A DNA stretch of 64,000 nucleotides. Origin: Candidatus Woesearchaeota archaeon. GTDB lineage: Archaea > Nanobdellota > Nanobdellia > SCGC-AAA011-G17 > GW2011-AR18. The translations under genes and the position numbers were made by a program. The stretch is from contig JAGVZG010000001.1 in the NCBI GenBank assembly GCA_018302765.1, positions 1 through 64,000 of the forward strand, given 5' to 3'. The notes beneath the pieces were generated by a model, which saw only the letters and a program-made list of their open reading frames with translations, had not been told where the DNA came from and made no database searches. Each line of letters opens with the position of its first letter. Positions within the stretch are counted from its first letter, which is position 1. Below, piece by piece: positions 4,064 through 47,831 of the stretch.

Positions 4064-4071
4064 ATAAAATA

Positions 4072-7672: not shown

Positions 7673-7786
7673 ATTTTTATTCTTTTGAAAATATTTTTAA
7701 GGTTAACGTTTTATTTAACAATATTCTTTAAAATATATATTGGTTTTATAAAAACATTTATTAAGTCTATTTTTAACTTAGATTTC

Positions 7787-8278: not shown

Positions 8279-8362
8279 ATTTAGAAAATCATCTAAGAAT
8301 AAATCCAAATATTTCTAAGAAATAATTTTAGCAACTTTTCAAAATCTAAATTTATTTTATAA

Positions 8363-9049: not shown

Positions 9050-9130
9050 ATTAAGTTAGAATTTGAATTCTTAATAAAATTATCTAATGCAATAAAAACC
9101 TTAATAAATTAAGTTTAAGTCATAATATCA

Positions 9131-11647: not shown

Positions 11648-11650
11648 TTT

Positions 11651-12160: not shown

Positions 12161-12309
12161 TTTATCACCATTGTTAAGTGGATACAATATAAGAATGGTA
12201 ATTTATATAGTTTTCGGTCTTTATTTTTATATTGCTTGATTTTATTGACTAATTTATAGAAATACTTATAAATTTTTTACTAATGTTTGCAATGTACTTT
12301 GGAGGAAAA

Positions 12310-13944: not shown

Positions 13945-14206
13945 TTATAATAGTTTAAGTAGAAGAGAAGTTCCAGAACGCATTAGGAGTTCTTTAGACA
14001 GGCAATTAGAGGATTATTTGTTAGTTACTTTTACTTCTTTAGATTTTACTTTGTTATGCAAAGAGTATTATTTCAGAAGAGAAAATCATGAAGGAGAATT
14101 GTACAATTGTTATTATTTAGGTATTTCAGTAATTTCATGTGAAACTAAGGCTTTCGTTAATACTTCTGCTACTTTCTTTGATGGCTACAAAGTTGAATCT
14201 TCCTAA
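13922..14206 (+). CDS. Hypothetical protein (94 aa)
   Basis: ATG 13922 overlaps the thermosome end; open to TAA 14206. Confidence 0.45.
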   Translation: MVTLAENNYNSLSRREVPERIRSSLDRQLEDYLLVTFTSLDFTLLCKEYYFRRENHEGELYNCYYLGISVISCETKAFVNTSATFFDGYKVESS

Positions 14207-14269
14207 AATGTTGGATTATATTTTGCACCAGATAAAAAATTTATAAATAAATATATAAAATAAATTTTG

Positions 14270-14841
14270 ATGGAAAGTAATTTTTTGGGTAGAAAAGTTG
14301 ATTTTGATGTAGGTTCTGATCGCGTTGAGTTTGGCAATGAATTTTTACGTGCCTGGAGAGAAGAAGGCTTTGTAGCTGTGCGTAATTATAATTATGAATT
14401 GACAGGTCTTAGAAATAATGTTTATTCTTTATTTAGAGAATTTTGCAATCTTCCTCTGGACGTTAAGATGAAATATTACGATCCTAAAGTTGGAGGACAA
14501 AGAAGCTATATTCCTAATGATGTTGGTTCTTCTTCTGGCGGAAAGTATACTGATTGCAGAGAGCATTTGATGATTGGTCCTAGAATTCCAAATGGATGTC
14601 CATTAGCAAGATGCAGACCTTATTTTTACCTTCCCAATAAAAATATTGAAGAAGTTCCAGGTTTGGTAGAGTGCTCTGAAAATTTGTTAGAGTAAAGAGT
14701 TTTGTTCTTGATGAATTACCTCATGATGACGTTGTGGTTGGAGACATCTTGAGATGGGAAGAAAAAACTGGCAATTATAAACTAATTAATTATGTAAACT
14801 CTCCTGACGACTACAATAGAATATTACAACATGGTTATTAA
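14270..14841 (+). pseudogene. Degenerate 2OG-Fe(II) oxygenase (isopenicillin-N-synthase-like)
   Basis: N-terminal DIOX-like AWREEGFVAVRNY..FCNLPLDVKMKY..RSY. Stop at 14695, then a shifted frame reads VVVGDILRWEEKTGNYK. The catalytic HxD segment is absent. Confidence 0.6.
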
Positions 14842-14846
14842 TGCCA

Positions 14847-16235
14847 TTATAGTTTTTTAATTACCATTCCATCTTTTGTGTCATCAATGTAATATCCTAA
14901 GGATTTTATTTTTTCTCTTAATCCATCTGCCAGTTTAAAGTCTTTATTTTTTCTAGCTTGTTCTCTTTTTTCAGCTAATTCTTTAATCTCTTCTGGGACT
15001 TTTATTTCTTCATCTAATATTCCAAATACTTCATTTATTTTATTCATAAAATTTTTTATCTTTTTAGTGTCTTTTGTAGATATTTTCTTTTCTGCAATTA
15101 ATTTATTTATTTCTTTCATGAATTCAAATAAAACAGTAAGCGCTTTTGGAGTTTCAAAGTCTTCATCCATTGATTTTTCAAAGTCATTTTTTGTTTTTTC
15201 TATCATAGAATTTATTTTTTTATTGTTTGTAGATCTGCTTTTATAATTTTTTAGTTTTAAAATGAATTCATTTAATTTTTGCAGAGAATTTTTTGCTTGT
15301 TCTATTGCTTCTTCTGAAAAGTCTATTGGCTTTCTATAGTGTGTTTGCAAAAACAAGAATCTTAGTATATTTTTATTATATTTTTTTATTACATCTCTTA
15401 TTGTAAAAAAATTTCCCAATGATTTTGACATTTTTTCTTTTTTTATCTGTAAAAACCCAGTATGCAGCCAGTATTTTACTAATGGTTTTTTTCCTGATAT
15501 TGATTCCATTTGTACAATTTCAGCTTCATGGTGAGGAAATATTAAGTCTAGACCGCCACCATGAATATCATATTGTGGGCCAAATTCTTTTTCTGTTATT
15601 GCTGTGTCCTCAATATGCCAGCCTGGTCTGCCTTTTATTAATTCTTTAGACTGCCAGAATGGATCTCCAGGTTTAGAAAACTTCCATAGGCAGAAATCCC
15701 CTTTGTTTTTTTTCTCAGGGTTTTCATCTATTCTTGAAACAGAGTCTTCTGCTTCTTGTGATTTTCTTTTGGCAAGTTTTCCATATTCTTTGAATTTGCT
15801 TAAATCAAAGTAGTAACCATCTGATATTTTGTAAGCATAGCCTTTTTTTATTAATCTTTTAACTTGAGAAATTATCTGAGGTATATGATCTGTTGCTCTT
15901 GCATATTTATTTACTGAATTCACATCTAGATTTTTCATATCTTCTAAATAAGTTTGTTCATATCTTCTTGAAATTGTTTTCCAATCAGTATTTTCTTCAT
16001 TTGCTTTTTTTATTATTTTATCATCTATGTCTGTTATGTTTTGCAGGTAGAATGTTTTATATCCTTTATATCTTAAGTATTTTACAATTATGTCAAACTG
16101 TATGTATGTTTTTGCATGGCCTAAATGTGAAAAGTCATAGACTGTTGGACCACACACAAATAGATTTATTTTTTTATCGTTTATTGGTTTGAGATTTTCT
16201 AGTTTTCTAGTTAGAGTATTGTAAACTTTAAGCAT
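14847..16235 (-). CDS. cysS: Cysteine--tRNA ligase
   Basis: CGPTVYD, HLGHA (HIGH), GRPGWHIE, DLIFPHHE, KMSKS. Confidence 0.98.
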   Translation of the reverse strand: MLKVYNTLTRKLENLKPINDKKINLFVCGPTVYDFSHLGHAKTYIQFDIIVKYLRYKGYKTFYLQNITDIDDKIIKKANEENTDWKTISRRYEQTYLEDMKNLDVNSVNKYARATDHIPQIISQVKRLIKKGYAYKISDGYYFDLSKFKEYGKLAKRKSQEAEDSVSRIDENPEKKNKGDFCLWKFSKPGDPFWQSKELIKGRPGWHIEDTAITEKEFGPQYDIHGGGLDLIFPHHEAEIVQMESISGKKPLVKYWLHTGFLQIKKEKMSKSLGNFFTIRDVIKKYNKNILRFLFLQTHYRKPIDFSEEAIEQAKNSLQKLNEFILKLKNYKSRSTNNKKINSMIEKTKNDFEKSMDEDFETPKALTVLFEFMKEINKLIAEKKISTKDTKKIKNFMNKINEVFGILDEEIKVPEEIKELAEKREQARKNKDFKLADGLREKIKSLGYYIDDTKDGMVIKKL

Positions 16236-24379: not shown

Positions 24380-24502
24380 GCCCTGGTAGTGTAGTGGTTA
24401 GCACAGAGCCCTGTCGATGTAAGCTTTTAGGAAAGGCTTGAAAAAACTTTGCTAAACAATAGATAGGCTCTAACTCGAGTTCAAATCTCGGCCAGGGCGC
24501 CA
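24380..24502 (+). tRNA. tRNA-Asp(GUC) with canonical 37/38 intron (24417-24464) and encoded CCA
   Basis: GCCCTGG/CCAGGGC acceptor, GAGCC/GGCTC stem, CTGTCG loop, BHB central helix CTGT/ATAG. Confidence 0.93.
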
Positions 24503-30685: not shown

Positions 30686-31129
30686 ATGGATGAATATTCA
30701 TTAGAAAGAATGGATGGCGGAGGCAAATTGAGTTTACCTAACGGCGGATTTTATAACTTAAGAGTAGCAGAACATAATAGTTTTTTATTACTGCTAGACA
30801 TTTCTCATTATCAAGGATCTGTTTTTGGTTTGAATATTTACCCTCATCATGACGGTATTGTTTGTGGCACTAATAAACCAGATGGACTTGAAATTTGTGG
30901 ATCTTATTTAGTTAATAAAATCATTGTAGGAGCTGATAGATTGGGAGGTCTAGATAATGCAGAACTTGATAGATTTCATAGTTATATTATAAGAAAGAAT
31001 AGAGACATGTCTTTTGATTTAGGAAGATTAGTTGAACTAAGAGACACTGAGAAATGGTTAATGAGAAGAGACGACTTTCCAAGTTTTAAAACTTTTTTAA
31101 GCGGAGTTATTAGGAGGGCAAAGAGCTGA
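30686..31129 (+). CDS. Hypothetical protein inserted inside the RNA polymerase operon
   Basis: 147-aa ATG ORF with 1-nt gaps to rpoB' and rpoA'. Confidence 0.7.
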   Translation: MDEYSLERMDGGGKLSLPNGGFYNLRVAEHNSFLLLLDISHYQGSVFGLNIYPHHDGIVCGTNKPDGLEICGSYLVNKIIVGADRLGGLDNAELDRFHSYIIRKNRDMSFDLGRLVELRDTEKWLMRRDDFPSFKTFLSGVIRRAKS

Positions 31130-34841: not shown

Positions 34842-35090
34842 ATGAAAGCTGATTTACTAGATGATCTGAAAAAGAAAAAACCATTTTTAGGACTGGATAT
34901 CGCGCTTAAGAAAATTAGAAATGGAAAGATAAGCAAGGCTTATGTTTCTTCTAATAGTGGCGCTAAGAATCAGCTAGTTAGGCTATGCAAAACAATAGGT
35001 GTTGAGGTTATTTTATTACAGGAATCTAGCAAAGATCTGGGAATTATTTGCAAAAAACCGTTTTCTGTTTCAGTAATAAGTTTTGAGTAA
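34842..35090 (+). CDS. rpl30e: 50S ribosomal protein L30e (L7Ae family)
   Basis: DLGIICKKPFSVSVI; position between rpoA'' and nusA. Confidence 0.88.
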   Translation: MKADLLDDLKKKKPFLGLDIALKKIRNGKISKAYVSSNSGAKNQLVRLCKTIGVEVILLQESSKDLGIICKKPFSVSVISFE

Positions 35091-35092: not shown

Positions 35093-35500
35093 ATGAAATT
35101 AACTTTAGATTCTATAAATAATATTAACTTATTTGAGAACTTAACTAGAGCTAAGGTTAAAGACTGTTTTCAGGAAGATGGCGTTCTTGTTTTTTTAGTT
35201 GAAGAGGGCAATGTTAAGAAAGCTTTAGGAAAAGACAGTTCAAATATTGATAGAATCAGCAAAATACTAAAAAAAGATATTAAAATTATTGCTTTTTCTA
35301 ATGATATTTGCAAATTTGTTAGTAATTTAATATATCCAAATAAGGCTGACGAGATAAAATTAGAAGGCAAAACTGTTTTTATAGTTGCCAGTGATGTTGG
35401 TGTCAAGGGAAGAATATTTGGCAGGTCAAGAGAAAATCTAAAGAGAATAAATTCCTTAGTTAGAAATTATTTCGACGTGGAAGAAGTTAAAGTTGTATAA
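35093..35500 (+). CDS. nusA: Archaeal NusA-like KH-domain transcription factor
   Basis: TRAKVKDC, two KH motifs (ALGKD, IFGRSRENL). Confidence 0.93.
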   Translation: MKLTLDSINNINLFENLTRAKVKDCFQEDGVLVFLVEEGNVKKALGKDSSNIDRISKILKKDIKIIAFSNDICKFVSNLIYPNKADEIKLEGKTVFIVASDVGVKGRIFGRSRENLKRINSLVRNYFDVEEVKVV

Positions 35501-35516
35501 TAAAAAGAAAAATAAT

Positions 35517-36167
35517 TTATATTTTTCTTAAACAGTATCTTGCATTTGCGCTTTTACAATTACCCATACTATTTACTTCTAAGTTTCCAATTTTTTTATT
35601 GCTTGTATTTCTTGGACTTAAGTAAAATGGTGCGTCAACGCCTATTATTTTTCCTGTATATTTTTCAGCTGTCATTAGTTGTGTTACTCTTGCCATGCTT
35701 AAGTACTCTCCAACGCCTAGACCCCAAACAGCAACTGTTCCTTCTTTTCCTATTTCATGAGCACTAATAATTAATATTTGATGTCCTTGTGCTGGATACA
35801 ATCCTATTGTACCTGGTTCAGCTTTAGCCACTGCTTCATCTTTTTTGCTGTAAGTTCTATAAGCGCCAGTTTCTGTAACTAATCCACTCCATGAGTTCAT
35901 TACATCATTTGCATATGATAAAGAACTTCCACAAAGTTCTTCTGCTACAGTTACTGGGTCTCTGGAAAAGAAATCTGGTGCATAGAGATGTGTTCTTCCT
36001 GCATTTACTAGTGCTTCTGGAAGTTGGCCTAATGTTTTCTCATCGCCTTCCCTCATATTTTTTAATAATCTTTCTAAATTGTTATCTAGTTCAATACCCA
36101 TTCCTAATAGTCTTCTTCTTGTTAAATTTGCAAATGCTTCTAATAATTGGTTTTTTCCCATTGCCAT
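35517..36167 (-). CDS. Divergent 3-methyladenine DNA glycosylase (AAG/MPG)-like protein
   Basis: PDFFSRDPVTVAEELCG...GLVTETGAY...PGTIGLY; the catalytic ETEAY motif reads ETGAY. Confidence 0.7.
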   Translation of the reverse strand: MAMGKNQLLEAFANLTRRRLLGMGIELDNNLERLLKNMREGDEKTLGQLPEALVNAGRTHLYAPDFFSRDPVTVAEELCGSSLSYANDVMNSWSGLVTETGAYRTYSKKDEAVAKAEPGTIGLYPAQGHQILIISAHEIGKEGTVAVWGLGVGEYLSMARVTQLMTAEKYTGKIIGVDAPFYLSPRNTSNKKIGNLEVNSMGNCKSANARYCLRKI

Positions 36168-36168
36168 T

Positions 36169-37263
36169 TTATTCTCCTTGCCTGATAATTGTTACAGGCA
36201 TTCTATGATTAATGTTGAAATCTTTGAACTTTCCCATAATCTCAAACTTTCTTCTTACCCTATTCAGAACCTCTTTTTCTTCGTCTGATGTTACTGCAAT
36301 GTTGTTGTCAATATCTCTTAAAACATCATCATGACTTACATCAGGTTTTCTATAAAGATTTAAATATCTTTCTGTTAATGTTTTTTCTATTCTTGCTTTT
36401 AATACATCTTTAATATTGAATGCTTGATAAGATAATATTTTTCTTTTTCTATTTGCAGCTACTGCACTCCAGTCTATACTTACGTTATTTCCATTTACTC
36501 TTACTCTTCTTGGCCCAGGTATGTAGACTTTGCTAGTGCGTTCTGGCTTTACTATAAATAAATTATTACCATTTGCATATTTTAGATACAGTGCTAATAA
36601 ATTCTCATCTGGTTCTGTTTCTTTATACGTTAATGCAGAACAGTGCAATAATTTTGCTCTTTCTGAAAGTTCTGAGTTTGCTATACTAAATATTCCATCT
36701 TCTAAGTCTTCTTCACCATATCTATATACCAATCTTGTTGTTAAATTTAGGTAAGTTCCTTGTGGTTTTGCTGTTGGTATGATTTTTTCCTTTGTTATGT
36801 CATATCTGAGTAAAAAATTAAATAAGTCTATTTTCTCATCTAACTTTCTTTTTTCTTTTAGCTCTGCATAAATTTCTAGCACTTCTTCGATTAATCTTTT
36901 GTCTGAGACAACAGCAACTGCATCTTCTATTTTTGAGTAACTTGCATTTTCTAATGCTTCTGTGTAAACTTTTTCAATTAAATCTCTGTTTGCCATCGAC
37001 AGCATTGAAAAGTGACCTACTGTTGACGTTGCTTTTGGAATGAGTGATTCTGGTTTTTTAGCTTCTTCTTTGCTTATTCTAAATGTTTCTGGAATAAATT
37101 CTCTATATGAATTTGCAACACTGTACTCTCCTAATTTATCACAGTTCCAGAAAAATGCGAACGACCATAAGTTATATGTTCTGTCATACTTAGCAGTACC
37201 ATAAGTTGCTAACATTATGTCAGCAAGTTCTGCAGCTTGTTGGTTGTATTTTTCTCTTTCCAT
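36169..37263 (-). CDS. Hypothetical protein (364 aa), member of the five-gene operon
   Basis: Long ORF with 1-nt spacing to both neighbours. Confidence 0.85.
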   Translation of the reverse strand: MEREKYNQQAAELADIMLATYGTAKYDRTYNLWSFAFFWNCDKLGEYSVANSYREFIPETFRISKEEAKKPESLIPKATSTVGHFSMLSMANRDLIEKVYTEALENASYSKIEDAVAVVSDKRLIEEVLEIYAELKEKRKLDEKIDLFNFLLRYDITKEKIIPTAKPQGTYLNLTTRLVYRYGEEDLEDGIFSIANSELSERAKLLHCSALTYKETEPDENLLALYLKYANGNNLFIVKPERTSKVYIPGPRRVRVNGNNVSIDWSAVAANRKRKILSYQAFNIKDVLKARIEKTLTERYLNLYRKPDVSHDDVLRDIDNNIAVTSDEEKEVLNRVRRKFEIMGKFKDFNINHRMPVTIIRQGE

Positions 37264-37264
37264 T

Positions 37265-40200
37265 TTATTCTTCTGCCAGTTTTCTTAGCACTGCTGCCAG
37301 TCTTGATAATTCCTCTTCTGGTGTTTCTCTTATTGTTTCTCCGAGTGCTAATATCTCTGGATGTATTGGTTCTCCTTGCGTTGGTTTTATTTTTGTAGGC
37401 TCTATATCTGTATCTATATTTAAGAATCCTGAACATTCATATCTTCTGAATTTTGCTTCTTTTTTTATTATTTCTGCTTCATTTTGGGTTCCATCTACTA
37501 TTTTGTATTCTTCTAACATTCTAAAGTAATGCCCTTCTTCATATCTTGACTTCTTGTCATCTATTTTTTTTGCTACAATTACATATGCTTCAAACCCATT
37601 TCTCTTTTCTTCGCCTGTATCTATGTCAATAGACTTCATTGATTTGTAAGTTCCAGTTAATTGCCTGTCTATTTCAAAGCCAATTTCAGTCATATCTTTA
37701 ATGAACTGTTCCCTGCAACTTATATCTATCTTTGATGTTGGTTCTATAATTAACATATAACTACCATTTTTCATTACTCTTTTATTTTCAGTGAAGTATT
37801 GTTTTCTTTCTTCTTCTGTTGCAAAATCCAAGGCCAAAGAACATACAATTAGATCCTTAGACTTTTCTTCCAAGCTTTCTGTTTTTTCATATTTCTTTTT
37901 CGGATCAAACACTTTGTTCTCTTGTGAATGAGGGACTAGATTTCTTAGGTCTGTGTAAGAACCCAAATAATATTTGTTTTCTTTATTTCCTTTTTCTTCA
38001 CATGCATCTATTCCATAATCTAATTGAAATCTATTTACATCTATGCATATAGTTTTTCTTTCTAAAATTCTTGATACTGTTGCTGGGCCAGAACCTTCAT
38101 CCAGTATGTCTTCAAGTTTTCTTCCTATTTTATTTTCTAGTCCTAGAATAATATCCCTTGCCAGTCTTGCACAATTGGATGAGAAACTGTATTCCCATGC
38201 GTAGTTATAATTTTTTGCTAGGAACATTGCATTGTCATGCGCACTCATTTCCTCTACAAATCTTTCTACACCTCTGCCCCTGAGATTATTAAACATTAAT
38301 GCAACTATGCTTCTTGAGTTTAAATTCAACAAACTACCAATTTCTGCTGATTTCTCTGGTTTTGTATCATCTATGAAAGCATTTATTTCCTCTGGTGTTG
38401 CATCTTCTCCCTTGAACACTAGGTTTATTAAATATGCCTTCCAGTCTCTGAATTTATACTTTGAATCTTCAAACGTGTTTACTGCTCTTGGTTGATGTAC
38501 TTCAACTTCATTATGTTTTCCAGATCTTACAATTCTGGCTAATAATTGTTCAAATCTTGCCGGTACTGTTGTAGCTTCATATTCTATTAGCATATCTGCT
38601 TCCTGAACATCTGCTCCTTCTCTTAGTGTTCCATAGCTTACTGATAATACTGTTTTTGCTGGGTTAGTTTGAAATTCTAATAAAGCTAGATCCCTTTGTG
38701 ATGGATCCCATATTTCATAGTTTCTAATTTCTAATCTTTGTCTTGCTGCGAGAGATAGATCAGATCTGAATTTTTGTCCTTCTTCATAAAGCCCTTCTGA
38801 TCTTAATGTTTCAATTTCTTCATTTTTTAATTGTATTTCTACTGGCTGTGCTGATACTGTCTGATCTATTCTTACACACCCATATTCAGCTAGTTTTTCC
38901 TCTAGAAAACTTGTCAGATTAGTTGAATATTCACATGCAACAATAACTTTTTTATTGTCTTTTTTTGCTTTTTTTATTATTTCTACTGTTGTTTGTAACT
39001 TGCTTGGAATGGTATTTTCTGCATATTCTCTTAATTTTGGATTTATTTCAAAGAATCTTTCTATTTTATTTTTTAATGAGTCTTGTCTTTCACTATCTGT
39101 AAAGTTATCAGGAAGCAGCTTTTTTGGATTTGTAAGTAGATAATTTAATAGTAAGTATCTCTCTCTACCTTCAAATAATGTTGAGTTTATTATTTCTATA
39201 TACAAGTCTGTTTCTTTTTCTGTTAATTCATAATTAACATTTATGAGAATTGGTTCTTTTACATCTGGATCTACATCTTTTAGTTCCCTGATTGGATTTG
39301 AATGTATGTCCAGTACTGCCCTTACTATTTTTGGATTGTCCCTAAATACTGCAGTGAAATCTTTAGGGTTATCTATAATACCCATTAGATAAAATTCATA
39401 GGCTATATTTGAAACATAGTTTCTAATTCCTGTTCCGCTTACCAATGTTCCCCATTTTGAATATCTGAATAATTCTCCAAGGGCTATTGCAGTTGCTGAA
39501 TCAGGATCTATTACATTGTGTATTTCATCATATATGACATAGTAAGGCTTACCATCTGCTCTGAATGCCTGCTGTCTTAACGCTGTTGCAATGCTTGCAG
39601 CTTCTGCATTTTTTTCTTCGATTACTATTCTTTTCAGCAAAGCATCTAGACTTCTTTCTTTTCTTGTATATTCTTTAAAATGATCTTCTATCATTGAATT
39701 TCTGAGAATTTCCAATGCCCTTTCTTTTGTGTAAACAGTTGTTAGAAGTTCTATGTATTTCTCTTCCATTTCTGCTGCAGTTTCTGGATCACTTATATCT
39801 ATGCCTGTTCTTCTATGGCTCAGTTCATAACCTAGCAACACAAGATCTACGTCTTCTCTTGCTGCTTTTTTTATAGAATATCTTCTATTTCTTCTTGTAA
39901 CTACACTGATATTTGGATCTTTTAATAACCTTTCTGCTTCTCTGATCCATGTTGGAATTATATACGTTGGACAGCATATCAATGTTTTAACTTTGCCATT
40001 TTCTCCAAGTTCTTTCATAAAAACTTCATTAATTATGGGTATTGCAGACAGAACCCCAATAGTTTTTCTTGTTCCTGGCTTGCTAAACTCAAATCTTTTT
40101 TTGCCTTCCATTCCAGATAATGCTATTTCTGTTGCTGCTAGTTGTTGTTCTGGAGATGGAATGTCTACAGTTGATGCATCAAAATAAGTATCTCTTCCTA

Positions 40201-40369
40201 AATTATTAAATATATTTTCTATCCCGCCAAATTCTTCTGCTTCTTGTATTATTTGTGATCCATATGGGAATTGTTCTAGAAAATGTTTGTTTGGAATGAA
40301 TCTTAATCTATTCAAAACTCTGCTTATTCCTTGCTCTAGTTCTATAAGTTTCTGAGGTTCTATTTGCAT
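37265..40369 (-). CDS. SNF2-like SF2 helicase/ATPase fused to a class I SAM-dependent methyltransferase
   Basis: Helicase motifs SKPGTRKT (I), LICCPTYIIPTW (Ia), DEIH (II), SGTGIRN (III), REGAD (V), QLLARIVRSG (VI); C-terminal ILDEGSGP and DLIVCSLALDF. Confidence 0.85.
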   Translation of the reverse strand: MQIEPQKLIELEQGISRVLNRLRFIPNKHFLEQFPYGSQIIQEAEEFGGIENIFNNLGRDTYFDASTVDIPSPEQQLAATEIALSGMEGKKRFEFSKPGTRKTIGVLSAIPIINEVFMKELGENGKVKTLICCPTYIIPTWIREAERLLKDPNISVVTRRNRRYSIKKAAREDVDLVLLGYELSHRRTGIDISDPETAAEMEEKYIELLTTVYTKERALEILRNSMIEDHFKEYTRKERSLDALLKRIVIEEKNAEAASIATALRQQAFRADGKPYYVIYDEIHNVIDPDSATAIALGELFRYSKWGTLVSGTGIRNYVSNIAYEFYLMGIIDNPKDFTAVFRDNPKIVRAVLDIHSNPIRELKDVDPDVKEPILINVNYELTEKETDLYIEIINSTLFEGRERYLLLNYLLTNPKKLLPDNFTDSERQDSLKNKIERFFEINPKLREYAENTIPSKLQTTVEIIKKAKKDNKKVIVACEYSTNLTSFLEEKLAEYGCVRIDQTVSAQPVEIQLKNEEIETLRSEGLYEEGQKFRSDLSLAARQRLEIRNYEIWDPSQRDLALLEFQTNPAKTVLSVSYGTLREGADVQEADMLIEYEATTVPARFEQLLARIVRSGKHNEVEVHQPRAVNTFEDSKYKFRDWKAYLINLVFKGEDATPEEINAFIDDTKPEKSAEIGSLLNLNSRSIVALMFNNLRGRGVERFVEEMSAHDNAMFLAKNYNYAWEYSFSSNCARLARDIILGLENKIGRKLEDILDEGSGPATVSRILERKTICIDVNRFQLDYGIDACEEKGNKENKYYLGSYTDLRNLVPHSQENKVFDPKKKYEKTESLEEKSKDLIVCSLALDFATEEERKQYFTENKRVMKNGSYMLIIEPTSKIDISCREQFIKDMTEIGFEIDRQLTGTYKSMKSIDIDTGEEKRNGFEAYVIVAKKIDDKKSRYEEGHYFRMLEEYKIVDGTQNEAEIIKKEAKFRRYECSGFLNIDTDIEPTKIKPTQGEPIHPEILALGETIRETPEEELSRLAAVLRKLAEE

Positions 40370-40374
40370 TTTTA

Positions 40375-42006
40375 TTATGTTGCATCTTTATTCTCACCAG
40401 TTCTTTTTTCTATTTCATCAACAAAGTACTGCCTGTTTATTCCAATGTATGATCTTAATAGTCTAACTAAATATGTACCACATTCAGTTAATGGTCTTTC
40501 TTCATATCTTATTGATGTAAATCTGCCTTTATCTTTATCTAGTAATGAATCATATAATGTTCTGCCAAAAGTACTGCATTCTCCTTGCGTGTTTAATTCA
40601 GTCTTTTTTTCATCAAATACGCCTTTCTCTAATTGTTTTACAAATGCTTTTTTGAGAAGCCTATCGTACAAGTCATATCTTTCTATTAAATTTCCTATGC
40701 CATCTGTGTATTCATTCATTGCACCTCCAATAGTTCTTGGTTCTGATCCTTTATCTGTTTCTTTTTCCATTACACCTTCCATCCATAATCCCGCAACCAA
40801 AAATCTGAAAAATATTTTATCATAAGAATGATCAGGATCTATAACTAATCTGCCAAGATCAGATACTGCTTCAAATATCTTATCTCTAGATGACCTTTCG
40901 TCTTCTGTTGTTCTTAACTTAGGCAAAATGTTCTTTTGTATATATTCATCATTTTTTATATAATCAGCAGCTTTCGCATAAGCAACCCATTTAGCTGTGC
41001 TTGAAATATATCTCTTAAAATCTTCCTTACTCATTTCTATTCCAGTTCTTTTTACTGAATATAGTACGTCCAATGCTAATTGCCTAAAACATATAACAAA
41101 GTGTTCTCCTTTATCATCCAATCTTTTGGATATTTTTTTATCAATGAATCTTTTATACAATGGAAGAACTGATTCTGATTTTTCACATAATTCTCTTAGT
41201 TTTTTCTTTTCGCGATCTTCTCTTATTATATATTCAAGCAGAACTTCTCCAGCTGTTTTCCTTATATCTTCCTTTTCTATTATTTCAGTTATAACTCTTT
41301 TAGTTTTACGGCTTATTTCTCCTCTGTGTTTTGCAACGTATGACGTTATTGATTCTACTTCTATTGTTAAACCTAAATTTGTTGCTGTTTCTAAAAATGC
41401 TGGGTCATTTATTATTTCTTCTAGGTCGTCTCTATTTGTGAATGTACGTGTTTTTTTAATTTTCTCAGGATTAGCTAAAGCAAAGAATGCCAGTGCGTCT
41501 GCATTTTCAATTAAGTAAGTATCTAGTGCTTGGTCTCTAACATATCCTGGTTTGTCTTTTGTTGGTTTAAAGGTTGGCTTTCCTTTTTTACCTGTCTTTT
41601 TCTTTTTAGCTGAGTCTATACGGTTTGATGTGTCAAGCATTGTTGAATAAGCTAATATGTCTGTAATTTCATCTAAACCTTGTTGCGGGTCTGATAGGTC
41701 TAAATTTCCATCTTGGCCTTTTGTGAGTATGACCTTTCCACCTTTCATAATTGTTACATAGTAAATATTACTTCCAGGTATTCTCATCATTACAATTTTG
41801 GTATCTGATCCTGAATTTCCAGTTGGTTCTTCTGAAGTTGTTGTTCTTGCAAGTGGATCTAATCTATGCAATAATTCTTCTAGTTCTCTTCTATCTTGTG
41901 GCCTTTTTGTATCTATATTACCATCTACTGCTAATCTAACTAATTCATGATAACTAAGTCTTTCCTGTCTTGCAAAATCTTTTAGTGTTATTTTACCGTC
42001 TGTCAT
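40375..42006 (-). CDS. Hypothetical protein with N-terminal HTH and a sigma-70 region-2-like segment
   Basis: ITLKDFARQERLSYHELVRLAVDG (excisionase-like HTH); EDFKRYISSTAKWVAYAKAADYIK. Confidence 0.7.
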   Translation of the reverse strand: MTDGKITLKDFARQERLSYHELVRLAVDGNIDTKRPQDRRELEELLHRLDPLARTTTSEEPTGNSGSDTKIVMMRIPGSNIYYVTIMKGGKVILTKGQDGNLDLSDPQQGLDEITDILAYSTMLDTSNRIDSAKKKKTGKKGKPTFKPTKDKPGYVRDQALDTYLIENADALAFFALANPEKIKKTRTFTNRDDLEEIINDPAFLETATNLGLTIEVESITSYVAKHRGEISRKTKRVITEIIEKEDIRKTAGEVLLEYIIREDREKKKLRELCEKSESVLPLYKRFIDKKISKRLDDKGEHFVICFRQLALDVLYSVKRTGIEMSKEDFKRYISSTAKWVAYAKAADYIKNDEYIQKNILPKLRTTEDERSSRDKIFEAVSDLGRLVIDPDHSYDKIFFRFLVAGLWMEGVMEKETDKGSEPRTIGGAMNEYTDGIGNLIERYDLYDRLLKKAFVKQLEKGVFDEKKTELNTQGECSTFGRTLYDSLLDKDKGRFTSIRYEERPLTECGTYLVRLLRSYIGINRQYFVDEIEKRTGENKDAT

Positions 42007-44711
42007 TGTGGTCTTAAATCTCCGAAATATTTTAATTCTATTTTTGCTCCAACTTTAGCTAGGTCAGACGATTCAAGTTTTTTCCTTGTTGTATCTATTA
42101 ATTTTGATAATCTCTCTGGTGTTGTTTGCCTATACACTAATTCTATATAATAACAATTACGTAATTCTCCTGTTTTTATTTCTGCATTTCTTCCCTTTAG
42201 TGTTGAGGCCAATGCTAGTGAAAAATCTAATGCTGCATTACTCCTGAAGTTTTGATTGTTTGTTGGTATTACAAATCTTAATCTATATCCATCTTTTTCT
42301 TGTACGTGATAAGAGAAACAGCCGAAAGTTGCATTTAATGGTATTCTTTTTCTAAATTCTGATGTTTCATCTAAAGCTTTGTTATGCATTATTTTTATAT
42401 TATCTATTTCATTTAATAATGCTTCTTCTTCTTCTTTTATTCTATAATGTTCTTTTTTTGCATCATTGTAATGTCTTATCAATTCTCTTGCTGCTCTTTC
42501 ATCTTCATTTAAAGATTCATCTTTTCTATGCTTAAATGTTCTCTCTGCTAGTGTAGCCATTTTATATGCAAGATTATGCTCTTCTGCATATCCAGTTTGG
42601 TCGAATTCAACATTATAATATTTCAATTTTTCAGATAATTCATCTATAGTCAATTCTCTATTTCTTAATTTTGGATCAATCTCTATTAATCTACTTCCTA
42701 ATTTTTCATATATTAGTTCTTTTAGATCTGTTTGTGCAATTACTAGATTTTCAGGTATTCCTTCTGGGAATAGTTTATTATATTCTTCAATTGCTGCATT
42801 TAGTTCTGGTGAATAGACTTTTCTAAATGCTTCAACTAAAATTTCTTCTGCTGTAAGATTTACAATTGAATTTTCTTTTACTAACATTTCTAATTCTGAC
42901 TTTTCTTTTTCTAATGCTGTTGCTATTTCTTTTAGTTCTTCAAGTCTAGCTTCTGTTTTTATAAGTTTTTGTTCTTCTACTTTAGCTGCTTCTCTTAGTT
43001 TTGCTTCAGCAGCACTTACTGTTTCTCTTCTTTTTTCTTCTATTGCTGCTAACAATCCTGATTTATAATTTGCTAAATCTTTATCATTATCTAATTTAGT
43101 TTCAAATGGTGATTTGTGGTTAACACTTATTGCAATTTCATGTAGAAGTGCTTCTATTGAAGTAGCGTATGTATTTGCATTTCTTGACTCTTTCTTTGCT
43201 TCAGTTATTCTTCTCTTATTTTCATCTAATGCTGCTAACAATCCTTGAGTGTATGTTGCAAGTTTTGTTTTACTTTTTGGCTCTATTTCAGTTTTGTATT
43301 CTACTGCTTCAGCTATATTTGCTAATAATACCAATACACTATCTATGTAAATGTTTGTTCTTTCTAATTCTTGTTTTTTCCCTTCAAGTTCTTCTTCTAT
43401 TCTTCTGAATCCTGCAACTTTATTTTTAGACTTTTCAAATTCTGTTGTTCCTTCAGCTCCGAATGTTTTTTCATACTCTTGTAATCTTCTTGTAAAGTCA
43501 CCTTTATCTTGTTCTTTTTTGCTATAAATTTCTTTATCATCTCTTACAAGTTCTAGGATATCTTTTAATGGAGTAATTTCAGCTTTTCTTTTTGGTAGAT
43601 TTGTTCTTATTGCATCTGCTATAAGATCTGCATCTAATGTTGTATTTTGTACCCTAAATCCTATAACTTTCTTTGTAAGTCCTTTTGGGTCATTATTTGC
43701 TGTTATTTTACCTAAATATACCATATTGTTATTTGGTTCTTTTTTATTAACAAGTTTTTTTAATTCTCTTTCTAATACACCAATATCGCTTGGTTTTTTT
43801 CTTTCTATTATGATATCATAGTGCTTATAACCATCTATTTTATTGTACGTTCTTGAACCACTTGCAACTTTTTTAGCTTTGTCTTTTGGTTCATTAGTTA
43901 CTTCTGTTTTTTTTATCTGTATTTTTTCCCCTTTTAATGCATCCAGAATTCTAATGCTATACCTTTCGAATTGTTCATCATTTAACATATCATTTTCAGT
44001 TGGTGTTGGTTCACCAAGATCTTCTGCGACAGCTGTTAATAGACCTTCTAAGTTTCCTCTATATTTTATTGATCTTTCTTTTTCTTCTATTATATTTCTT
44101 GTTAGTTCTTCTACTGCTATTTTTAATTTTTTTTCACCTTTTATTGTTCTTCTTTTTGGAAAATCATGGCCTACCGAAGTTGCAATTGTTTCTACAGAAT
44201 CATAAATTGCATCAATTATTTCATTTAATGAAGTTGTTGCGCTTCTACATCTTTCTCCTATATTTGTTTTTATTGCTATGCCAAGTTCTTCAGTATAGCC
44301 AATTAAACCAGGTCTTTTTTCTAATTCTTTTGGCGTTGGAGTTCTATAATCTACAATACGTGCAAGAGTCTTGAATCCTTCTGCAAGTGCATTTAGATCT
44401 ATATCTTTTGTTTCTTTAACTTCTGCTAATTCTGGCTTATCAACACACGTTATTGAAAATTCCCCAGTATCAAATCTTTTAGTTATTATTCTTCTTAGTG
44501 TGGCTTCATTTAAATCTCTACCTTCTATTTTTACACCAAATTTACGCTCTCTAGAATCTCTTAAATATTCTATATTAACTTTATCAATGTTTTTTCCAAA
44601 CGAACAATCTATTAAATTTTTTAGTATACCTGCTGTTCTTGAATTGCCGCTTGTAACTCTAATTTCATAAATTCTTGCAGTTCTATTTTCTTGATTAGAT
44701 GATGCTATCAT
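42003..44711 (-). CDS. Large coiled-coil protein with internal ~50-aa repeats
   Basis: 902 aa; heptad-rich segments and repeated LL..IA..V...LA.Y..GLLAA units; no Walker A. Confidence 0.85.
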   Translation of the reverse strand: MIASSNQENRTARIYEIRVTSGNSRTAGILKNLIDCSFGKNIDKVNIEYLRDSRERKFGVKIEGRDLNEATLRRIITKRFDTGEFSITCVDKPELAEVKETKDIDLNALAEGFKTLARIVDYRTPTPKELEKRPGLIGYTEELGIAIKTNIGERCRSATTSLNEIIDAIYDSVETIATSVGHDFPKRRTIKGEKKLKIAVEELTRNIIEEKERSIKYRGNLEGLLTAVAEDLGEPTPTENDMLNDEQFERYSIRILDALKGEKIQIKKTEVTNEPKDKAKKVASGSRTYNKIDGYKHYDIIIERKKPSDIGVLERELKKLVNKKEPNNNMVYLGKITANNDPKGLTKKVIGFRVQNTTLDADLIADAIRTNLPKRKAEITPLKDILELVRDDKEIYSKKEQDKGDFTRRLQEYEKTFGAEGTTEFEKSKNKVAGFRRIEEELEGKKQELERTNIYIDSVLVLLANIAEAVEYKTEIEPKSKTKLATYTQGLLAALDENKRRITEAKKESRNANTYATSIEALLHEIAISVNHKSPFETKLDNDKDLANYKSGLLAAIEEKRRETVSAAEAKLREAAKVEEQKLIKTEARLEELKEIATALEKEKSELEMLVKENSIVNLTAEEILVEAFRKVYSPELNAAIEEYNKLFPEGIPENLVIAQTDLKELIYEKLGSRLIEIDPKLRNRELTIDELSEKLKYYNVEFDQTGYAEEHNLAYKMATLAERTFKHRKDESLNEDERAARELIRHYNDAKKEHYRIKEEEEALLNEIDNIKIMHNKALDETSEFRKRIPLNATFGCFSYHVQEKDGYRLRFVIPTNNQNFRSNAALDFSLALASTLKGRNAEIKTGELRNCYYIELVYRQTTPERLSKLIDTTRKKLESSDLAKVGAKIELKYFGDLRPQ

Positions 44712-44761
44712 TTTATTTACTTTTTAGTGGTTAATATTCAGCTAATGCAGTAGAATTTAAC

Positions 44762-44775
44762 TTATAAAACTTTCC
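44762..44775 (-). promoter_or_regulatory. BRE/TATA-like promoter of the five-gene operon
   Basis: Minus strand GGAAAGTTTTATAA about 50 nt upstream of ATG 44711, matching the motif seen before other genes here. Confidence 0.5.
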
Positions 44776-44871
44776 ATCTGTTAGTAGTAACTTTTCTTTT
44801 TATTATTACTATTATTATAATTTAGAAAATACTTTGTTAAAGGCAGTTTTGTTTAGAAAGTTATATAAACA

Positions 44872-46717: not shown

Positions 46718-46809
46718 AAGATTTGTCTTGGAGAAAAACTTAAATTCGTTTTGATTACTGGTTTGTTTTTAAAGCAAAGCTTTAAATTGTTTCTTTGGTT
46801 TATTTATTT

Positions 46810-47075
46810 GCAGGCAGGCTGGAGAGCTCGTCCTACTCTGTAAGCACAAACGGACGTCATGGTGTAGCTGATGCTTGGTGGGCGGTGTTGCTATTGTGGT
46901 AGGTCTTAGTAACTACAATGATAATCTGTCTTGATTGGTTGAAGCAGTTATGAAATGTGTCAGGTCAGGAATGAAGCAGCACTAAATGATTGCTCCAATG
47001 CTTTCAGGGTAGCGGATTTGAGGAATGGCTAGGGTAAACCTAACATGATAGGAATATCAACCTCTGGGCGCCTGC
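46810..47075 (+). ncRNA. ffs: Signal recognition particle (7S) RNA
   Basis: Terminal GCAGGC/GCCTGC helix, Alu-domain UGUAA, helix-8 motif TCAGGTCAGGAATGAAGCAGC at 46960-46980. Confidence 0.92.
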
Positions 47076-47084
47076 GTTTTTACT

Positions 47085-47831
47085 ATGAAAGAAATTATTA
47101 AAAAAATAAAATCTAAAAAAACATTGGATAGATTAGATGATACATTTGTTGAAAGTTTTCTAAATATTTTTTTGAAGAAAAATTCAAAATTAAATAAAAA
47201 ATATTTAGATGGAGAATTAAAGAAAAAAGACATAAGGATTATAGTTAAGTCAGTCAGGAATAATTTGAACAGATTTTATGGACAGTTTTGGACTAGTGAC
47301 AAATTAAAATTGGAATCACATAGGTCTACTAAGGAAAGACTAGGAATCTATGATAAATTATATAGTTTTATTTTTTCTATTACTTGTAGGCCTAAAACAA
47401 TTCTGGACTTGGCTTGTGGTTTAAATCCATTGACTTACAAGAACATAGGCAATGATATTTATTTTATAGCTGTGGAACTTACAGAATATGACTGCGGTAA
47501 AATTAAAGAGTATTTTGAAAGGGAAAACATTAAAGGAGAGGTTATAAGAGCAGATCTTAGAACTTATAATACGTTCCCGAGTGCAGATCTGTGCTTTATG
47601 TTTAAAATTTTGGATAGCTTAGGAGGCAATAACAATTTAATTGCTGAGAACTTGATCAGAAGCGTAAAAGCAAAATATATTGTTGCTAGTTTTTCAACTA
47701 AAAATGTTAAAGGAAAAAAGATGAATTATCCCAAGAGAGGATGGTTTGAGATAATGCTTAGAAGGATAGGATATAGGTTTGTTAAGTTTGACACAAACAA
47801 TGAGGTCTTTTACATTATTAAAAAATTATAG
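47085..47831 (+). CDS. ArmA/RmtB/FmrO-family rRNA methyltransferase homolog
   Basis: HRSTKERL and ILDLACGLNPL family signatures. Confidence 0.85.
   Translation: MKEIIKKIKSKKTLDRLDDTFVESFLNIFLKKNSKLNKKYLDGELKKKDIRIIVKSVRNNLNRFYGQFWTSDKLKLESHRSTKERLGIYDKLYSFIFSITCRPKTILDLACGLNPLTYKNIGNDIYFIAVELTEYDCGKIKEYFERENIKGEVIRADLRTYNTFPSADLCFMFKILDSLGGNNNLIAENLIRSVKAKYIVASFSTKNVKGKKMNYPKRGWFEIMLRRIGYRFVKFDTNNEVFYIIKKL

What the first reader, a model, noticed from the sequence alone, without database searches (positions are those of the whole stretch)
35517..44711. Candidate novel five-gene system: coiled-coil repeat protein, HTH/sigma-like protein, SNF2-methyltransferase, unknown protein, degenerate AAG
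Seen directly: five co-oriented genes over 9.2 kb with junctions of ATGA overlap, 5, 1 and 1 nt, one upstream BRE/TATA, and convergence on nusA where rps12-rps7 usually follow. There is no integrase, nuclease motif or R-M methyltransferase motif. The recognisable modules are nucleic-acid-related but altered (Walker A GTRKT, AAG without its catalytic Glu, sigma-r2-like helix bundle). I cannot match this combination to a named defence system (BREX, DISARM, Druantia, Wadjet) or repair pathway. Inference: a multi-subunit DNA-scanning or transcription-modulating machine, possibly for anti-viral defence or host manipulation.
Basis: partly seen in the sequence, partly recalled or inferred. Interest (0 to 1): 0.85.

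Follow-up and report, generated by a model that had tools for sequence, protein, structure and literature searches.

The report
Conserved orphan SNF2-methyltransferase operon in DPANN
Five tightly packed genes of a tiny DPANN archaeon (a DNA-motor/methyltransferase fusion, a catalytically disabled relative of a DNA-repair glycosylase and three proteins of no known family) stay together in the same order wherever relatives occur, so they form a real, rare and undescribed nucleic-acid-handling module, most likely a defence-type system, whose function is still inferred.

Summary
Five minus-strand genes (902, 543, 1034, 364 and 216 aa) lie at 35517-44711, with junctions of -4, 5, 1 and 1 nt.

Relatives keep the order g1-g2-g3-g4-g5 on every contig long enough to show it. 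That is about a dozen distinct loci in at least six different chromosomal settings, with g3 identity down to 28%.

The module is rare and patchy. The g2 family was found in 3 of 401 good genomes of the phylum, and g3 had 11 relatives among 5.8 billion proteins. No relative was found in phage, plasmid or viral-contig collections.

- **g3** is a true SNF2 ATPase with a conserved odd Walker A (GTRKT). It is fused to an Rrp8/Methyltransf_8-type SAM methyltransferase, not a DNA amino-methyltransferase.
- **g5** is a real but divergent AAG/MPG homologue (hhalign 95.8%). Only 1 of 12 members keeps the catalytic Glu.
- **g2** folds confidently (pLDDT 84) and has no structural neighbour. The HTH/sigma reading is not supported.
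- **g1** is hypervariable. **g4** is an orphan; in one variant it carries a NucS-type nuclease domain while the methyltransferase domain and g5 are missing.

No PADLOC system matches. My best reading is a new defence-type DNA-tracking module. The operon itself is near certain; the defence function is about 50% likely. This scan had flagged the same stretch before.

The parts
42003..44711 (-). g1, 902 aa. The N-terminal and middle part is hypervariable and rich in helices and repeats. The C-terminal ~320 aa (residues ~590-902) is conserved.
   Evidence: ORF. Alignment A4 shows that only the C-terminal third is conserved. Orthologues are 546-1086 aa long, with mean pairwise identity 19.5% against 38.5% for g3. 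Internal ~50-aa repeats score z = 12.9 (R4/R5) and 7.4 (R3/R5). There is no consistent Pfam, PADLOC or PHROG hit and no TM segment.
40375..42006 (-). g2, 543 aa, an orphan family with a confidently predicted, mostly helical fold that has no structural neighbour.
   Evidence: The family has 45 representatives among 1.84 billion proteins. AF2 with 32 sequences gives pLDDT 84.3 and pTM 0.83. Foldseek against PDB and BFVD finds nothing at E <= 1e-3. The best VIA match is Z 8.1 on an 80-residue helix bundle only. No consistent Pfam family appears among the 32 members.
37265..40369 (-). g3, 1034 aa, a fusion of an SNF2-family ATPase and a class I SAM methyltransferase.
   Evidence: Pfam finds SNF2-rel_dom, Helicase_C and Methyltransf_8 above their cut-offs. 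The family profile matches PDB ISW1 at 2e-17 and Sulfolobus Rad54-like 1z63 at 5e-17. It is conserved across 11 loci.
38390..40162 (-). SNF2 ATPase core of g3 (residues ~70-660). It carries a Q-motif (IPSxEQ), Walker A GTRKT, DEIHN (DExH), GTGIRN, and motif VI Q..AR..RSGK.
   Evidence: Alignment A8: K102, E282, H284, N285, T313, N317, Q608 and R612 are invariant. GTRK[TS] occurs in 10 of 11 members and GSGKT in L018.
37484..38308 (-). Methyltransferase domain of g3 (residues 688-962), Rrp8/Methyltransf_8-like. Motif I is ILDEGSGP. There is no (D/N/S)PP(Y/F/W) motif.
   Evidence: All 11 members hit PF05148, best E 2.3e-9. The best solved relative is 2zfu (deposited as 'Cerebral protein 1'), profile E 6e-5.
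36169..37263 (-). g4, 364 aa, an orphan protein with a basic PGxRRVR segment. In one variant genome it is fused to a NucS-type nuclease domain.
   Evidence: Alignment A10. No Pfam, PDB-profile or Atlas relative was found. In G282 a 595-aa protein carries g4 at residues 268-584, and a fragment of its N-terminal part is on record with PF01939.
35517..36167 (-). g5, 216 aa. A helical N-terminal extension is followed by a divergent AAG/MPG-fold domain lacking the catalytic Glu (VTETGAY against IVETEAY).
   Evidence: Pfam PF02245 scores 20.8 bits, below the 27-bit cut-off. Five of 10 members hit only that family. hhalign of the g5 profile against 19 canonical DPANN AAGs gives Prob 95.8%, E 6.7e-9 over 116 columns. 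The Glu is kept in 1 of 12 members.
44712..44871 (.). Divergent intergenic region with a TATA-like box (44762-44769) preceded by GGAAA, about 55 nt upstream of the g1 start.
   Evidence: Read from the sequence. Not tested statistically.
35497..35511 (.). Left arm of a perfect 15-nt inverted repeat (ATAATAAAAAGAAAA) that brackets the cassette. The right arm is at 44792-44806.
   Evidence: two exact copies in the window, 0.38 expected at <=1 mismatch. It is AT-rich, so its significance is uncertain.

Best explanation
The five genes form one co-inherited operon that encodes a multi-protein, nucleic-acid (most likely DNA) tracking module of a previously undescribed composition. It is carried as a rare accessory element by DPANN (Nanoarchaeia/Pacearchaeota-type) archaea. 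Its most likely role is defence or genetic conflict.

Proposed working (inferred): the SNF2 motor of g3 moves the complex along duplex DNA. The fused Rrp8-like methyltransferase writes a non-canonical methyl mark, on a base position other than the exocyclic amino groups used by R-M enzymes. The AAG-fold protein g5 flips out and reads that alkylated purine, and in a minority of lineages may excise it. The hypervariable g1 provides target or partner specificity. g2 and g4 are structural adaptors.

Shown here: the genes are real, their order and co-inheritance are conserved, and the domain identities hold. Inferred: complex formation, DNA as the substrate, the write/read logic, and defence as the biological role.
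For: Conserved order:
- The order g1-g2-g3-g4-g5 is kept in every locus long enough to show it: G002/L005, L007, L009/L010, L011 and the P0014 contig, L012-L014, L016-L018, L041/L042 and G325/L055.
- The flanks differ between loci: RNAP operon, glycolysis genes, ribosomal protein genes, thymidylate synthase, or an integrase with toxin-antitoxin genes.
- Identities of g2, g4 and g5 track that of g3 (r = 0.79-0.96), so the genes are inherited as a unit.

Rarity and patchiness:
- g2 family in 3 of 401 high-quality genomes of the phylum.
- g3 in 2 of 24 other genomes of the family.
- 11 relatives of g3 among 5.8 billion proteins.

Domain identities:
- g3 is an SNF2 ATPase with conserved DExH and motif VI, fused to a Methyltransf_8-type methyltransferase.
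- g5 is an AAG-fold homologue.

Features typical of defence systems:
- g1 is the fastest-evolving part, at 19.5% mean identity and 546-1086 aa.
- One variant (G282) has a NucS-type PD-(D/E)xK domain fused to g4, and there the methyltransferase domain and g5 are both missing.
- A tyrosine recombinase and toxin-antitoxin genes lie next to the cassette in L007.
- A 35-nt direct repeat (33 of 35 identical) brackets the cassette in G002.

Precedent for glycosylase-based immunity assisted by a base-modifying enzyme: Brig1 (PMC11078745) and Brig3/BapA (bioRxiv 10.64898/2026.02.25.707755).
Against:
- Most loci sit among housekeeping genes, not in recognisable defence islands.
- GC content equals that of the surroundings.
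- No nuclease is present in the standard cassette.
- The closest relatives of the methyltransferase act on rRNA, so the substrate could be RNA or protein.
- The Walker A glycine before the lysine is replaced (GTRKT), so ATPase activity is not assured.
- The nuclease-bearing variant is a single case, and its SNF2 motifs are all degenerate. It may be a decaying copy.
- g5 lacks the catalytic Glu in 11 of 12 members, so excision is unlikely in most.
Confidence: 0.5

Rival explanations
1. A lineage-specific DNA-repair or transcription-coupled maintenance module. An SNF2 translocase of the CSB/Rad26/Mfd type, working with an AAG-like lesion sensor, recognises alkylated purines and clears stalled polymerases. 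On this view the methyltransferase domain is regulatory or acts on a protein partner.
For: The g3 profile also matches ERCC6/Rad26 (E about 1e-9). g5 is an AAG homologue. G000 has no canonical AAG, while 31 of 151 genomes of the phylum do. In the window and its closest relatives the cassette abuts the RNA polymerase/nusA operon.
Against: The catalytic Glu of AAG is lost in 11 of 12 members. The position next to the RNAP operon holds only within the genus and its near relatives; other lineages carry the cassette elsewhere. A prevalence below 1% and a hypervariable g1 are unusual for a repair pathway. A fused methyltransferase has no obvious role in repair.
Confidence: 0.2
2. Cargo of an integrated or degraded mobile genetic element, for example an anti-restriction, DNA-entry or partition module of a DPANN plasmid or virus, rather than a host immune system.
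For: Distribution is patchy. A 35-nt direct repeat brackets the cassette in G002. A 15-nt perfect inverted repeat brackets it in the window. An integrase lies 1.1 kb downstream in L007. Large helicase-methyltransferase proteins are known from phages and plasmids (P1 DarB; from my own knowledge).
Against: No relative was found in IMG/VR viral contigs, phage records or plasmid records. No integrase, replication or capsid gene lies inside the cassette. Composition is the same as the host. Divergence of the cassette genes is similar to that of the flanking host genes within the genus: g3 61% against S49 65% and RDD 62%. That fits vertical descent there.
Confidence: 0.15
3. An RNA- or RNP-directed machine. 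The Rrp8-like domain methylates rRNA or tRNA (N1-adenine type), the SNF2-like ATPase remodels an RNP, and the other proteins are assembly factors.
For: The methyltransferase domain is closest to Methyltransf_8 and the solved chain 2zfu. Yeast Rrp8 makes m1A645 in 25S rRNA (PMC3553958). The neighbourhood in the window is rich in translation and transcription genes.
Against: SNF2-family ATPases are duplex-DNA translocases (established knowledge of the family). AAG-fold proteins and the NucS-type nuclease domain of the variant are DNA-directed. An rRNA modification system would not be expected in fewer than 1% of genomes.
Confidence: 0.1

Closest known systems
DISARM (DrmA/DrmB/DrmC with DrmD SNF2 helicase and DrmMI/MII methyltransferase)
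   Same: A multi-gene module that combines an SNF2-family ATPase with a methyltransferase and needs no classical restriction endonuclease. There are weak PADLOC DrmD hits on the helicase motifs.
   Different: No DrmA, DrmB (DUF1998) or DrmC relatives. The methyltransferase is fused to the SNF2 protein. It is Rrp8/Methyltransf_8-like and has no DPPY-type motif. The four partner proteins are unrelated to DISARM parts.
BREX / type I restriction-modification logic
   Same: A methyltransferase plus an ATP-driven component plus a variable subunit with long helical repeats. g1 resembles a specificity subunit only in being the variable part. As in BREX, no nuclease is needed.
   Different: No PglZ, BrxC, PglX, HsdM, HsdS or HsdR homology. 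No amino-methyltransferase motif IV.
Glycosylase-based antiviral defence (Brig1, PMC11078745; Brig3 with the base-modifying BapA, bioRxiv 10.64898/2026.02.25.707755; Dag1/2, bioRxiv 10.1101/2025.10.29.685425)
   Same: A base-flipping glycosylase-fold protein encoded with a base-modifying enzyme in one operon.
   Different: Those systems are one or two genes. The Dag1/2 preprint does not mention AAG, MPG, alkyladenine or methylpurine. Here the fold is AAG/MPG, the catalytic Glu is mostly lost, and the partner is a motor-fused methyltransferase within a five-gene set.
Alkyladenine (3-methyladenine) DNA glycosylase AAG/MPG, PF02245
   Same: Homologous core by profile-profile comparison, Prob 95.8%. 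The GxV/I-x-x-T-x-A-Y and PGT segments are kept. By my own alignment to human AAG from memory, the aromatic residues at the positions of Y127 and Y159 are kept too.
   Different: Below the Pfam cut-off, 20.8 against 27 bits. The general-base Glu (human E125; numbering from my own knowledge) is replaced by G/A/V/S in 11 of 12 members. There is a ~60-aa helical N-terminal extension. The protein is always encoded last in the cassette.
Rrp8 / nucleomethylin (Methyltransf_8, PDB 2zfu)
   Same: The closest family for the methyltransferase domain. Motif I (DxGxG) and the post-I acidic residue are conserved.
   Different: Fused to an SNF2 ATPase. The match is weak, 27.8 bits against a 27-bit cut-off in the window protein. 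The substrate is unknown. Rrp8 is a eukaryotic rRNA m1A enzyme (PMC3553958).
SNF2-methyltransferase fusion next to a GHKL ATPase in a sister genus (G006, L006 8415-10988)
   Same: The same fusion type: SNF2 plus Methyltransf_25/11/8, 857 aa, 24% identity over 556 aligned residues to g3.
   Different: Its neighbours (an HTH_17 protein, a GHKL/HATPase_c_3 protein and four orphans) show no relation to g2, g4 or g5 by hhalign (g1 was not scored: that run timed out). It is a different gene set built around a similar core.

Membership tests
SNF2-family ATPase (g3, N-terminal two thirds) | SNF2-rel_dom and Helicase_C profile matches above the curated cut-offs. | tested here: met
   PF00176 scores 27.5 against 24.9 bits and PF00271 scores 31.7 against 23.5 bits. 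The family profile matches ISW1 at 2e-17 and 1z63 at 5e-17.
SNF2-family ATPase (g3, N-terminal two thirds) | Canonical helicase motifs: I (GxGKT), II (DExH), III, and VI (QxxxRxxRxGQ). | tested here: inconclusive
   DEIHN, GTGIRN and Q608..R612..R615-S-G-K are conserved. Motif I reads GTRKT, with Arg in place of the Gly before the Lys, in 10 of 11 members. ATPase activity was not tested.
Class I SAM methyltransferase, Methyltransf_8 (Rrp8-like) | Profile match above the cut-off, and SAM-binding motif I. | tested here: met
   PF05148 scores 27.8 against 27 bits in the window protein. All 11 orthologues hit it, best E 2.3e-9. ILDEGSGP is conserved (D757, G759, G761). The margin is narrow.
R-M type DNA amino-methyltransferase (N6A/N4C) | Motif IV (D/N/S)PP(Y/F/W), and an N6_Mtase or N6_N4_Mtase profile match. 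| tested here: not met
   The motif is absent from all five proteins. There is no such Pfam hit.
AAG/MPG DNA glycosylase (PF02245) | Profile match above the curated cut-off. | tested here: not met
   20.8 bits against a 27-bit cut-off. NCBIfam gives 16.6 against 211 bits.
AAG/MPG DNA glycosylase (PF02245) | Homologous fold or core. | tested here: met
   hhalign of the g5 family against 19 canonical AAGs gives Prob 95.8%, E 6.7e-9 over 116 columns. PF02245 is the only family hit, in 5 of 10 members. The AF2 model was too poor to confirm the fold by structure (pLDDT 53).
AAG/MPG DNA glycosylase (PF02245) | Catalytic general-base Glu in the IVETEAY motif. | tested here: not met
   The window protein reads VTETGAY. 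The Glu is kept only in L018 (IIETEAF), that is 1 of 12 members.
DISARM / BREX / Dpd / Zorya / Druantia (PADLOC-DB v2) | Presence of the signature proteins: DrmA/B, PglZ/BrxC, DpdA-C, ZorA/B, DruA-E. | tested here: not met
   PADLOC gives no hit for g1, g2, g4 or g5. g3 gets only sub-threshold helicase-motif hits to DpdE and DrmD, with E between 2e-5 and 1e-3.
   No Pfam Sigma70 or HTH hit at E <= 0.1 in any of 32 family members. No sigma factor appears among the 50 best VIA matches or the Foldseek hits. Residues 1-34 of the model have low confidence.
Integrative mobile element | An integrase or transposase inside the unit, and flanking repeats. | tested here: inconclusive
   No recombinase lies inside the cassette. 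A 15-nt inverted repeat flanks it in the window and a 35-nt direct repeat flanks it in G002. An integrase lies beside it only in L007.

The most novel reading that the evidence does not exclude
This is a new kind of immune or epigenetic system. A DNA translocase carries an Rrp8-type methyltransferase that places a Watson-Crick-face or otherwise non-canonical purine methyl mark on DNA. A catalytically silenced AAG-fold protein acts as the dedicated reader of that mark, and as an excising effector in lineages that keep the Glu. A hypervariable coiled-coil subunit sets specificity. Together the methyltransferase and the AAG-like protein would do the job that a nuclease does in the G282 variant.
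Probability: 0.2. Interest if true: 0.85.

Novelty: new variant of a known kind. Interest (0 to 1): 0.62.

Why it matters
DPANN archaea are poor in CRISPR and restriction-modification systems (PMC12988326), and how they cope with viruses and foreign DNA is largely unknown. This cassette is a concrete, conserved and testable candidate.

It joins a chromatin-remodeller-type motor to an rRNA-type methyltransferase. It recruits an inactivated DNA-repair glycosylase fold. It also contains a confidently folded protein with no structural relatives.

If the write-and-read idea holds, it would add a new chemistry to self/non-self marking and a new use for the AAG fold. If it proves to be a repair or chromatin module, it would be the first SNF2-based one described for these minimal archaea.

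Tried and rejected
**Family and profile searches**
- Pfam, NCBIfam, PADLOC and PHROGs scans of all five proteins recognised only g3 and, weakly, g5.
- Profile searches of g5, g4 and g2 against PDB sequences found nothing.
- Per-member Pfam scans of the g4, g2 and g1 families gave no consistent family.

**Structure and Atlas**
- The ESM Atlas look-up for g4 gave only sub-0.85 leads and a poor stored model. For the g1 C-terminus it gave nothing.
- AF2 of g5 from a 5-sequence alignment was too poor to use (pLDDT 53).
No interaction was tested.
- The g2 model had no match in Foldseek PDB or BFVD. VIA-wide gave only a generic four-helix-bundle match, Z 8.1 over 80 residues. Sigma-factor similarity was therefore not found, though it is not formally excluded.

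**Collection scans**
- The search for related loci with the g2 alignments failed for lack of conserved stretches.
- With the g3 alignment it found 4 genome loci, no viral contigs and no metagenome loci. The scan is limited by its patterns.
- A word-based search with the g5 profile found only 4 proteins.
- tblastn of g2 and of the methyltransferase domain against phage and plasmid records found nothing.

**Ideas considered and dropped**
- The partners of the G006 SNF2-methyltransferase gene might be distant g2, g4 or g5. hhalign rejects this, with probabilities <= 1%.
- The 241-aa gene after g4 in G282 might be a swapped methyltransferase. It is an MnmC2-like tRNA enzyme (3vyw, 9e-30), so a housekeeping neighbour.
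- Literature searches found no description of this gene set.


Full report
**Setting.** The window is contig C27 of a 1.02-Mb, 28-contig genome (G000, completeness 100). It belongs to a DPANN archaeon. Related contigs are titled Candidatus Nanoarchaeia and Pacearchaeota. Upstream of the finding lie split rpoB, rpoA', rpoA'' and a KH-domain nusA. Downstream lie an RDD-family gene, an S49 peptidase, SRP RNA and an FmrO-like methyltransferase. GC content across the cassette (0.29-0.33) does not differ from the rest of the window.

**The observation.** Five minus-strand ORFs of 902, 543, 1034, 364 and 216 aa occupy 35517-44711. The junctions are a 4-nt overlap, then gaps of 5, 1 and 1 nt. A TATA-like box preceded by GGAAA lies about 55 nt upstream of g1. 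The last gene converges on nusA with 16 nt between the stop codons. In G010, a family member that lacks the cassette, rps12 follows nusA directly. In G000 rps12 sits on another contig. So the cassette does lie at a break of the usual nusA-rps12 linkage. None of the five proteins has a TM segment, a canonical P-loop, a (D/N/S)PP(Y/F/W) motif or a Cys-rich nuclease motif.

**Is it a unit?** Yes.
- A congeneric genome (G002) has all five genes in the same order and at the same place, with 44-61% identity in the best local matches.
- Contigs encoding more distant g3 relatives (57, 55, 43 and 36% identity) carry the same neighbours, as do three further contigs.
- A profile of g2 searched against 1.84 billion representatives found 45 proteins. 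The four distant members whose contigs I fetched again sit directly upstream of a ~1000-aa g3 wherever the contig allows. g4- and g5-sized genes follow on the three contigs long enough to show them.
- HMMs built from my alignments recognise g2-g3-g4-g5 in that order in all 13 loci then held and in G325.
- The flanking genes differ between lineages: RNAP operon, L37ae and prefoldin, glycolysis genes, thymidylate synthase, superoxide dismutase, or an integrase with toxin-antitoxin genes.
- Pairwise identities of g2, g4 and g5 track those of g3 (r = 0.79-0.96). The set is inherited as one block.

**How common is it?** Rare.
- g3 has 11 relatives among 5.8 billion proteins (the search scored only the 8000 best candidates).
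- It was found in 2 of 24 other genomes of the same family.
- The g2 family was found in 3 of 401 high-quality genomes sampled across the phylum, and those belong to two different families.
- Four of about 185,000 species representatives were picked up by a pattern scan.
- Nothing was found in viral contigs, phage records or plasmid records.

**g3.**
- The N-terminal two thirds are a true SNF2 ATPase. Pfam hits are above the cut-offs. The family profile matches ISW1 at 2e-17 and the Sulfolobus Rad54-like enzyme 1z63 at 5e-17, and also matches INO80, SWR1, HELLS and ERCC6.
- The Q-motif, DExH (DEIHN), GTGIRN and motif VI are conserved. Motif I reads GTRK[TS] in 10 of 11 aligned members, and GSGKT only in L018. 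A conserved deviation speaks for function, but ATPase activity is not assured.
- The C-terminal 275 aa are a class I SAM methyltransferase. All 11 orthologues hit Methyltransf_8, best E 2.3e-9.
- The closest solved chain is 2zfu, which by my own knowledge is the human RRP8/nucleomethylin domain. Yeast Rrp8 makes m1A645 in 25S rRNA (PMC3553958).
- This is therefore not an R-M-type amino-methyltransferase.

**g5.**
- The Pfam hit to Pur_DNA_glyco is below the cut-off (20.8 against 27 bits). It is nevertheless the only family hit, in 5 of 10 orthologues.
- A profile-profile comparison with 19 canonical AAGs taken from DPANN genomes gives Prob 95.8%, E 6.7e-9 over 116 columns.
- The IVETEAY motif aligns with VTETGAY. 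The second Glu, the general base E125 of human AAG by my own knowledge, is G/A/V/S in 11 of 12 members and kept only in L018.
- The Tyr of the motif, and the aromatic residue after PGT, remain.
- G000 has no canonical AAG.
- My reading is a base-flipping binding module that has mostly lost catalysis.

**g2.** With a 32-sequence alignment AF2 gives pLDDT 84.3 and pTM 0.83. The model has a small beta domain, a Lys-rich linker, an alpha/beta domain and a large helical domain. Foldseek finds nothing in PDB or BFVD at E <= 1e-3. An exhaustive VIA search gives at best Z 8.1 over 80 residues of a four-helix bundle, which the tool's own calibration rates as common for helical models. None of the 32 members hits an HTH or sigma Pfam family.

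**g1 and g4.**
- g1 varies from 546 to 1086 aa with 19.5% mean identity. Only its last ~320 residues are conserved. Two pairs of ~50-aa units are clearly repeated (z = 12.9 and 7.4).
- g4 has no detectable relatives outside the cassette.

**Informative variants.**
- In G282 the g3 gene is only 605 aa. It lacks the methyltransferase domain, and every ATPase motif is degenerate: PGSSSSP, NQAQA, QTHNYQ.
- The next protein in G282 (595 aa) carries g4 at residues 268-584. Upstream of that it has the sequence GRLDILATN..KKVMIELKY. A fragment of this protein is on record with PF01939, NucS. No g5 follows; the next gene is an MnmC2-like tRNA enzyme.
- So in that one case the methyltransferase domain and the AAG-like protein are absent together where a PD-(D/E)xK nuclease is present. 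This is a single, possibly decaying, example. It still ties g4 to DNA cleavage, and it suggests that the methyltransferase and g5 work as a pair.
- L018 shows the opposite pattern: canonical GSGKT, DExH changed to GEGHN, a truncated g4, and a g5 that keeps the Glu.
- A sister genus (G006) has a shorter SNF2-methyltransferase fusion beside a GHKL ATPase and an HTH_17 protein. Its partners are unrelated to g2, g4 and g5.

**Signs of mobility.** A 35-nt direct repeat (33 of 35 identical) brackets the cassette in G002. A perfect 15-nt AT-rich inverted repeat brackets it in the window, with 0.38 expected. An integrase and toxin-antitoxin genes adjoin it in L007. Against recent transfer, composition equals the host, and within the genus the cassette genes have diverged about as much as the flanking genes.

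**Interpretation.** The operon is real and co-inherited (near certainty). Its parts point to DNA: an SNF2 motor, an AAG fold, and a nuclease in one variant. Rarity, patchiness, a hypervariable subunit, effector swapping and occasional mobile-element neighbours are the usual marks of defence or conflict systems, and I rate that role at about one in two.

The specific mechanism is inference: a motor-borne Rrp8-type methyltransferase writes a non-canonical mark, and an AAG-fold protein reads or excises it. Glycosylase defence assisted by a base-modifying enzyme is a published precedent (PMC11078745; bioRxiv 10.64898/2026.02.25.707755).

The rivals are a repair or transcription-coupled module (0.2), cargo of a mobile element (0.15) and an RNA-directed machine (0.1).

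**Comparison and novelty.** The cassette fails the membership tests for DISARM, BREX, Dpd, Zorya and type I R-M, and no paper found describes it. It shares only the general logic of helicase-plus-methyltransferase multi-gene systems. I therefore file it as a new variant of that broad kind, built largely from orphan parts. The stronger reading, a new mark-and-read chemistry, remains open at about 0.2.

**Limits.** No structure was obtained for g1, g4 or g5. The prevalence figures come from samples and from pattern- or word-limited searches. Residue numbers for human AAG, and the identity of 2zfu as RRP8, come from my own knowledge.

Noticed in passing
L056 (G282:C21) 3293-6975: A variant cassette. 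The 605-aa SNF2 gene has every ATPase motif degenerate and no methyltransferase domain. The next protein is a NucS-type (PF01939) PD-(D/E)xK domain fused to g4. No AAG-like gene follows.
   Followed up: partly
L005 (G002:C47) 1123-1157 and 10176-10210: A 35-nt direct repeat (33 of 35 identical) brackets the whole cassette in the congeneric genome. An extra 292-aa orphan ORF lies between nusA and g5 there.
   Followed up: partly
window 35497-35511 and 44792-44806: A perfect 15-nt inverted repeat, ATAATAAAAAGAAAA, sits just outside both ends of the cassette (0.38 matches expected at <=1 mismatch). It is AT-rich and may be a terminator or promoter element rather than an insertion scar.
   Followed up: partly
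L006 (G006:C15) 6305-15218: A different minus-strand cluster in a sister genus: an HTH_17 protein, a 309-aa orphan, a GHKL (HATPase_c_3) ATPase, a 202-aa orphan, an 857-aa SNF2-methyltransferase fusion, and 288- and 405-aa orphans. It may be another uncharacterised system built on the same fusion.
   Followed up: partly
whole genome G000: No canonical AAG/MPG (PF02245) gene was found in G000, although 31 of 151 sampled genomes of the phylum have one above the cut-off. The only match in G000 is the degenerate g5.
   Followed up: partly
window 30686-31129: A 147-aa ORF lies between the rpoB C-terminal gene and rpoA', 1-2 nt from each.
   Followed up: no
window 34842-35090: An 82-aa ORF between rpoA'' and nusA has no Pfam hit at E <= 0.001. 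It is conserved in L013 (66% identity). It occupies the position usually held by rpl30e in archaeal RNAP operons (from my own knowledge).
   Followed up: no
window 47085-47831: An FmrO-family (16S rRNA methyltransferase-like) gene (Pfam E 1.1e-16) lies directly after the SRP RNA gene (46807-47078).
   Followed up: no
window 24380-24499: Rfam finds a 120-nt tRNA match (49.7 bits) that ARAGORN misses. This fits the intron-split tRNA genes reported for this genome by an earlier follow-up.
   Followed up: no
L018 (GCA_013330875.1, DUHL01000224.1) 151-6389: The most divergent cassette. g3 has a canonical GSGKT Walker A, but DExH is changed to GEGHN and the motif I Asp of the methyltransferase is lost. 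g4 is cut to 262 aa. g5 keeps the AAG catalytic Glu (IIETEAF).
   Followed up: partly
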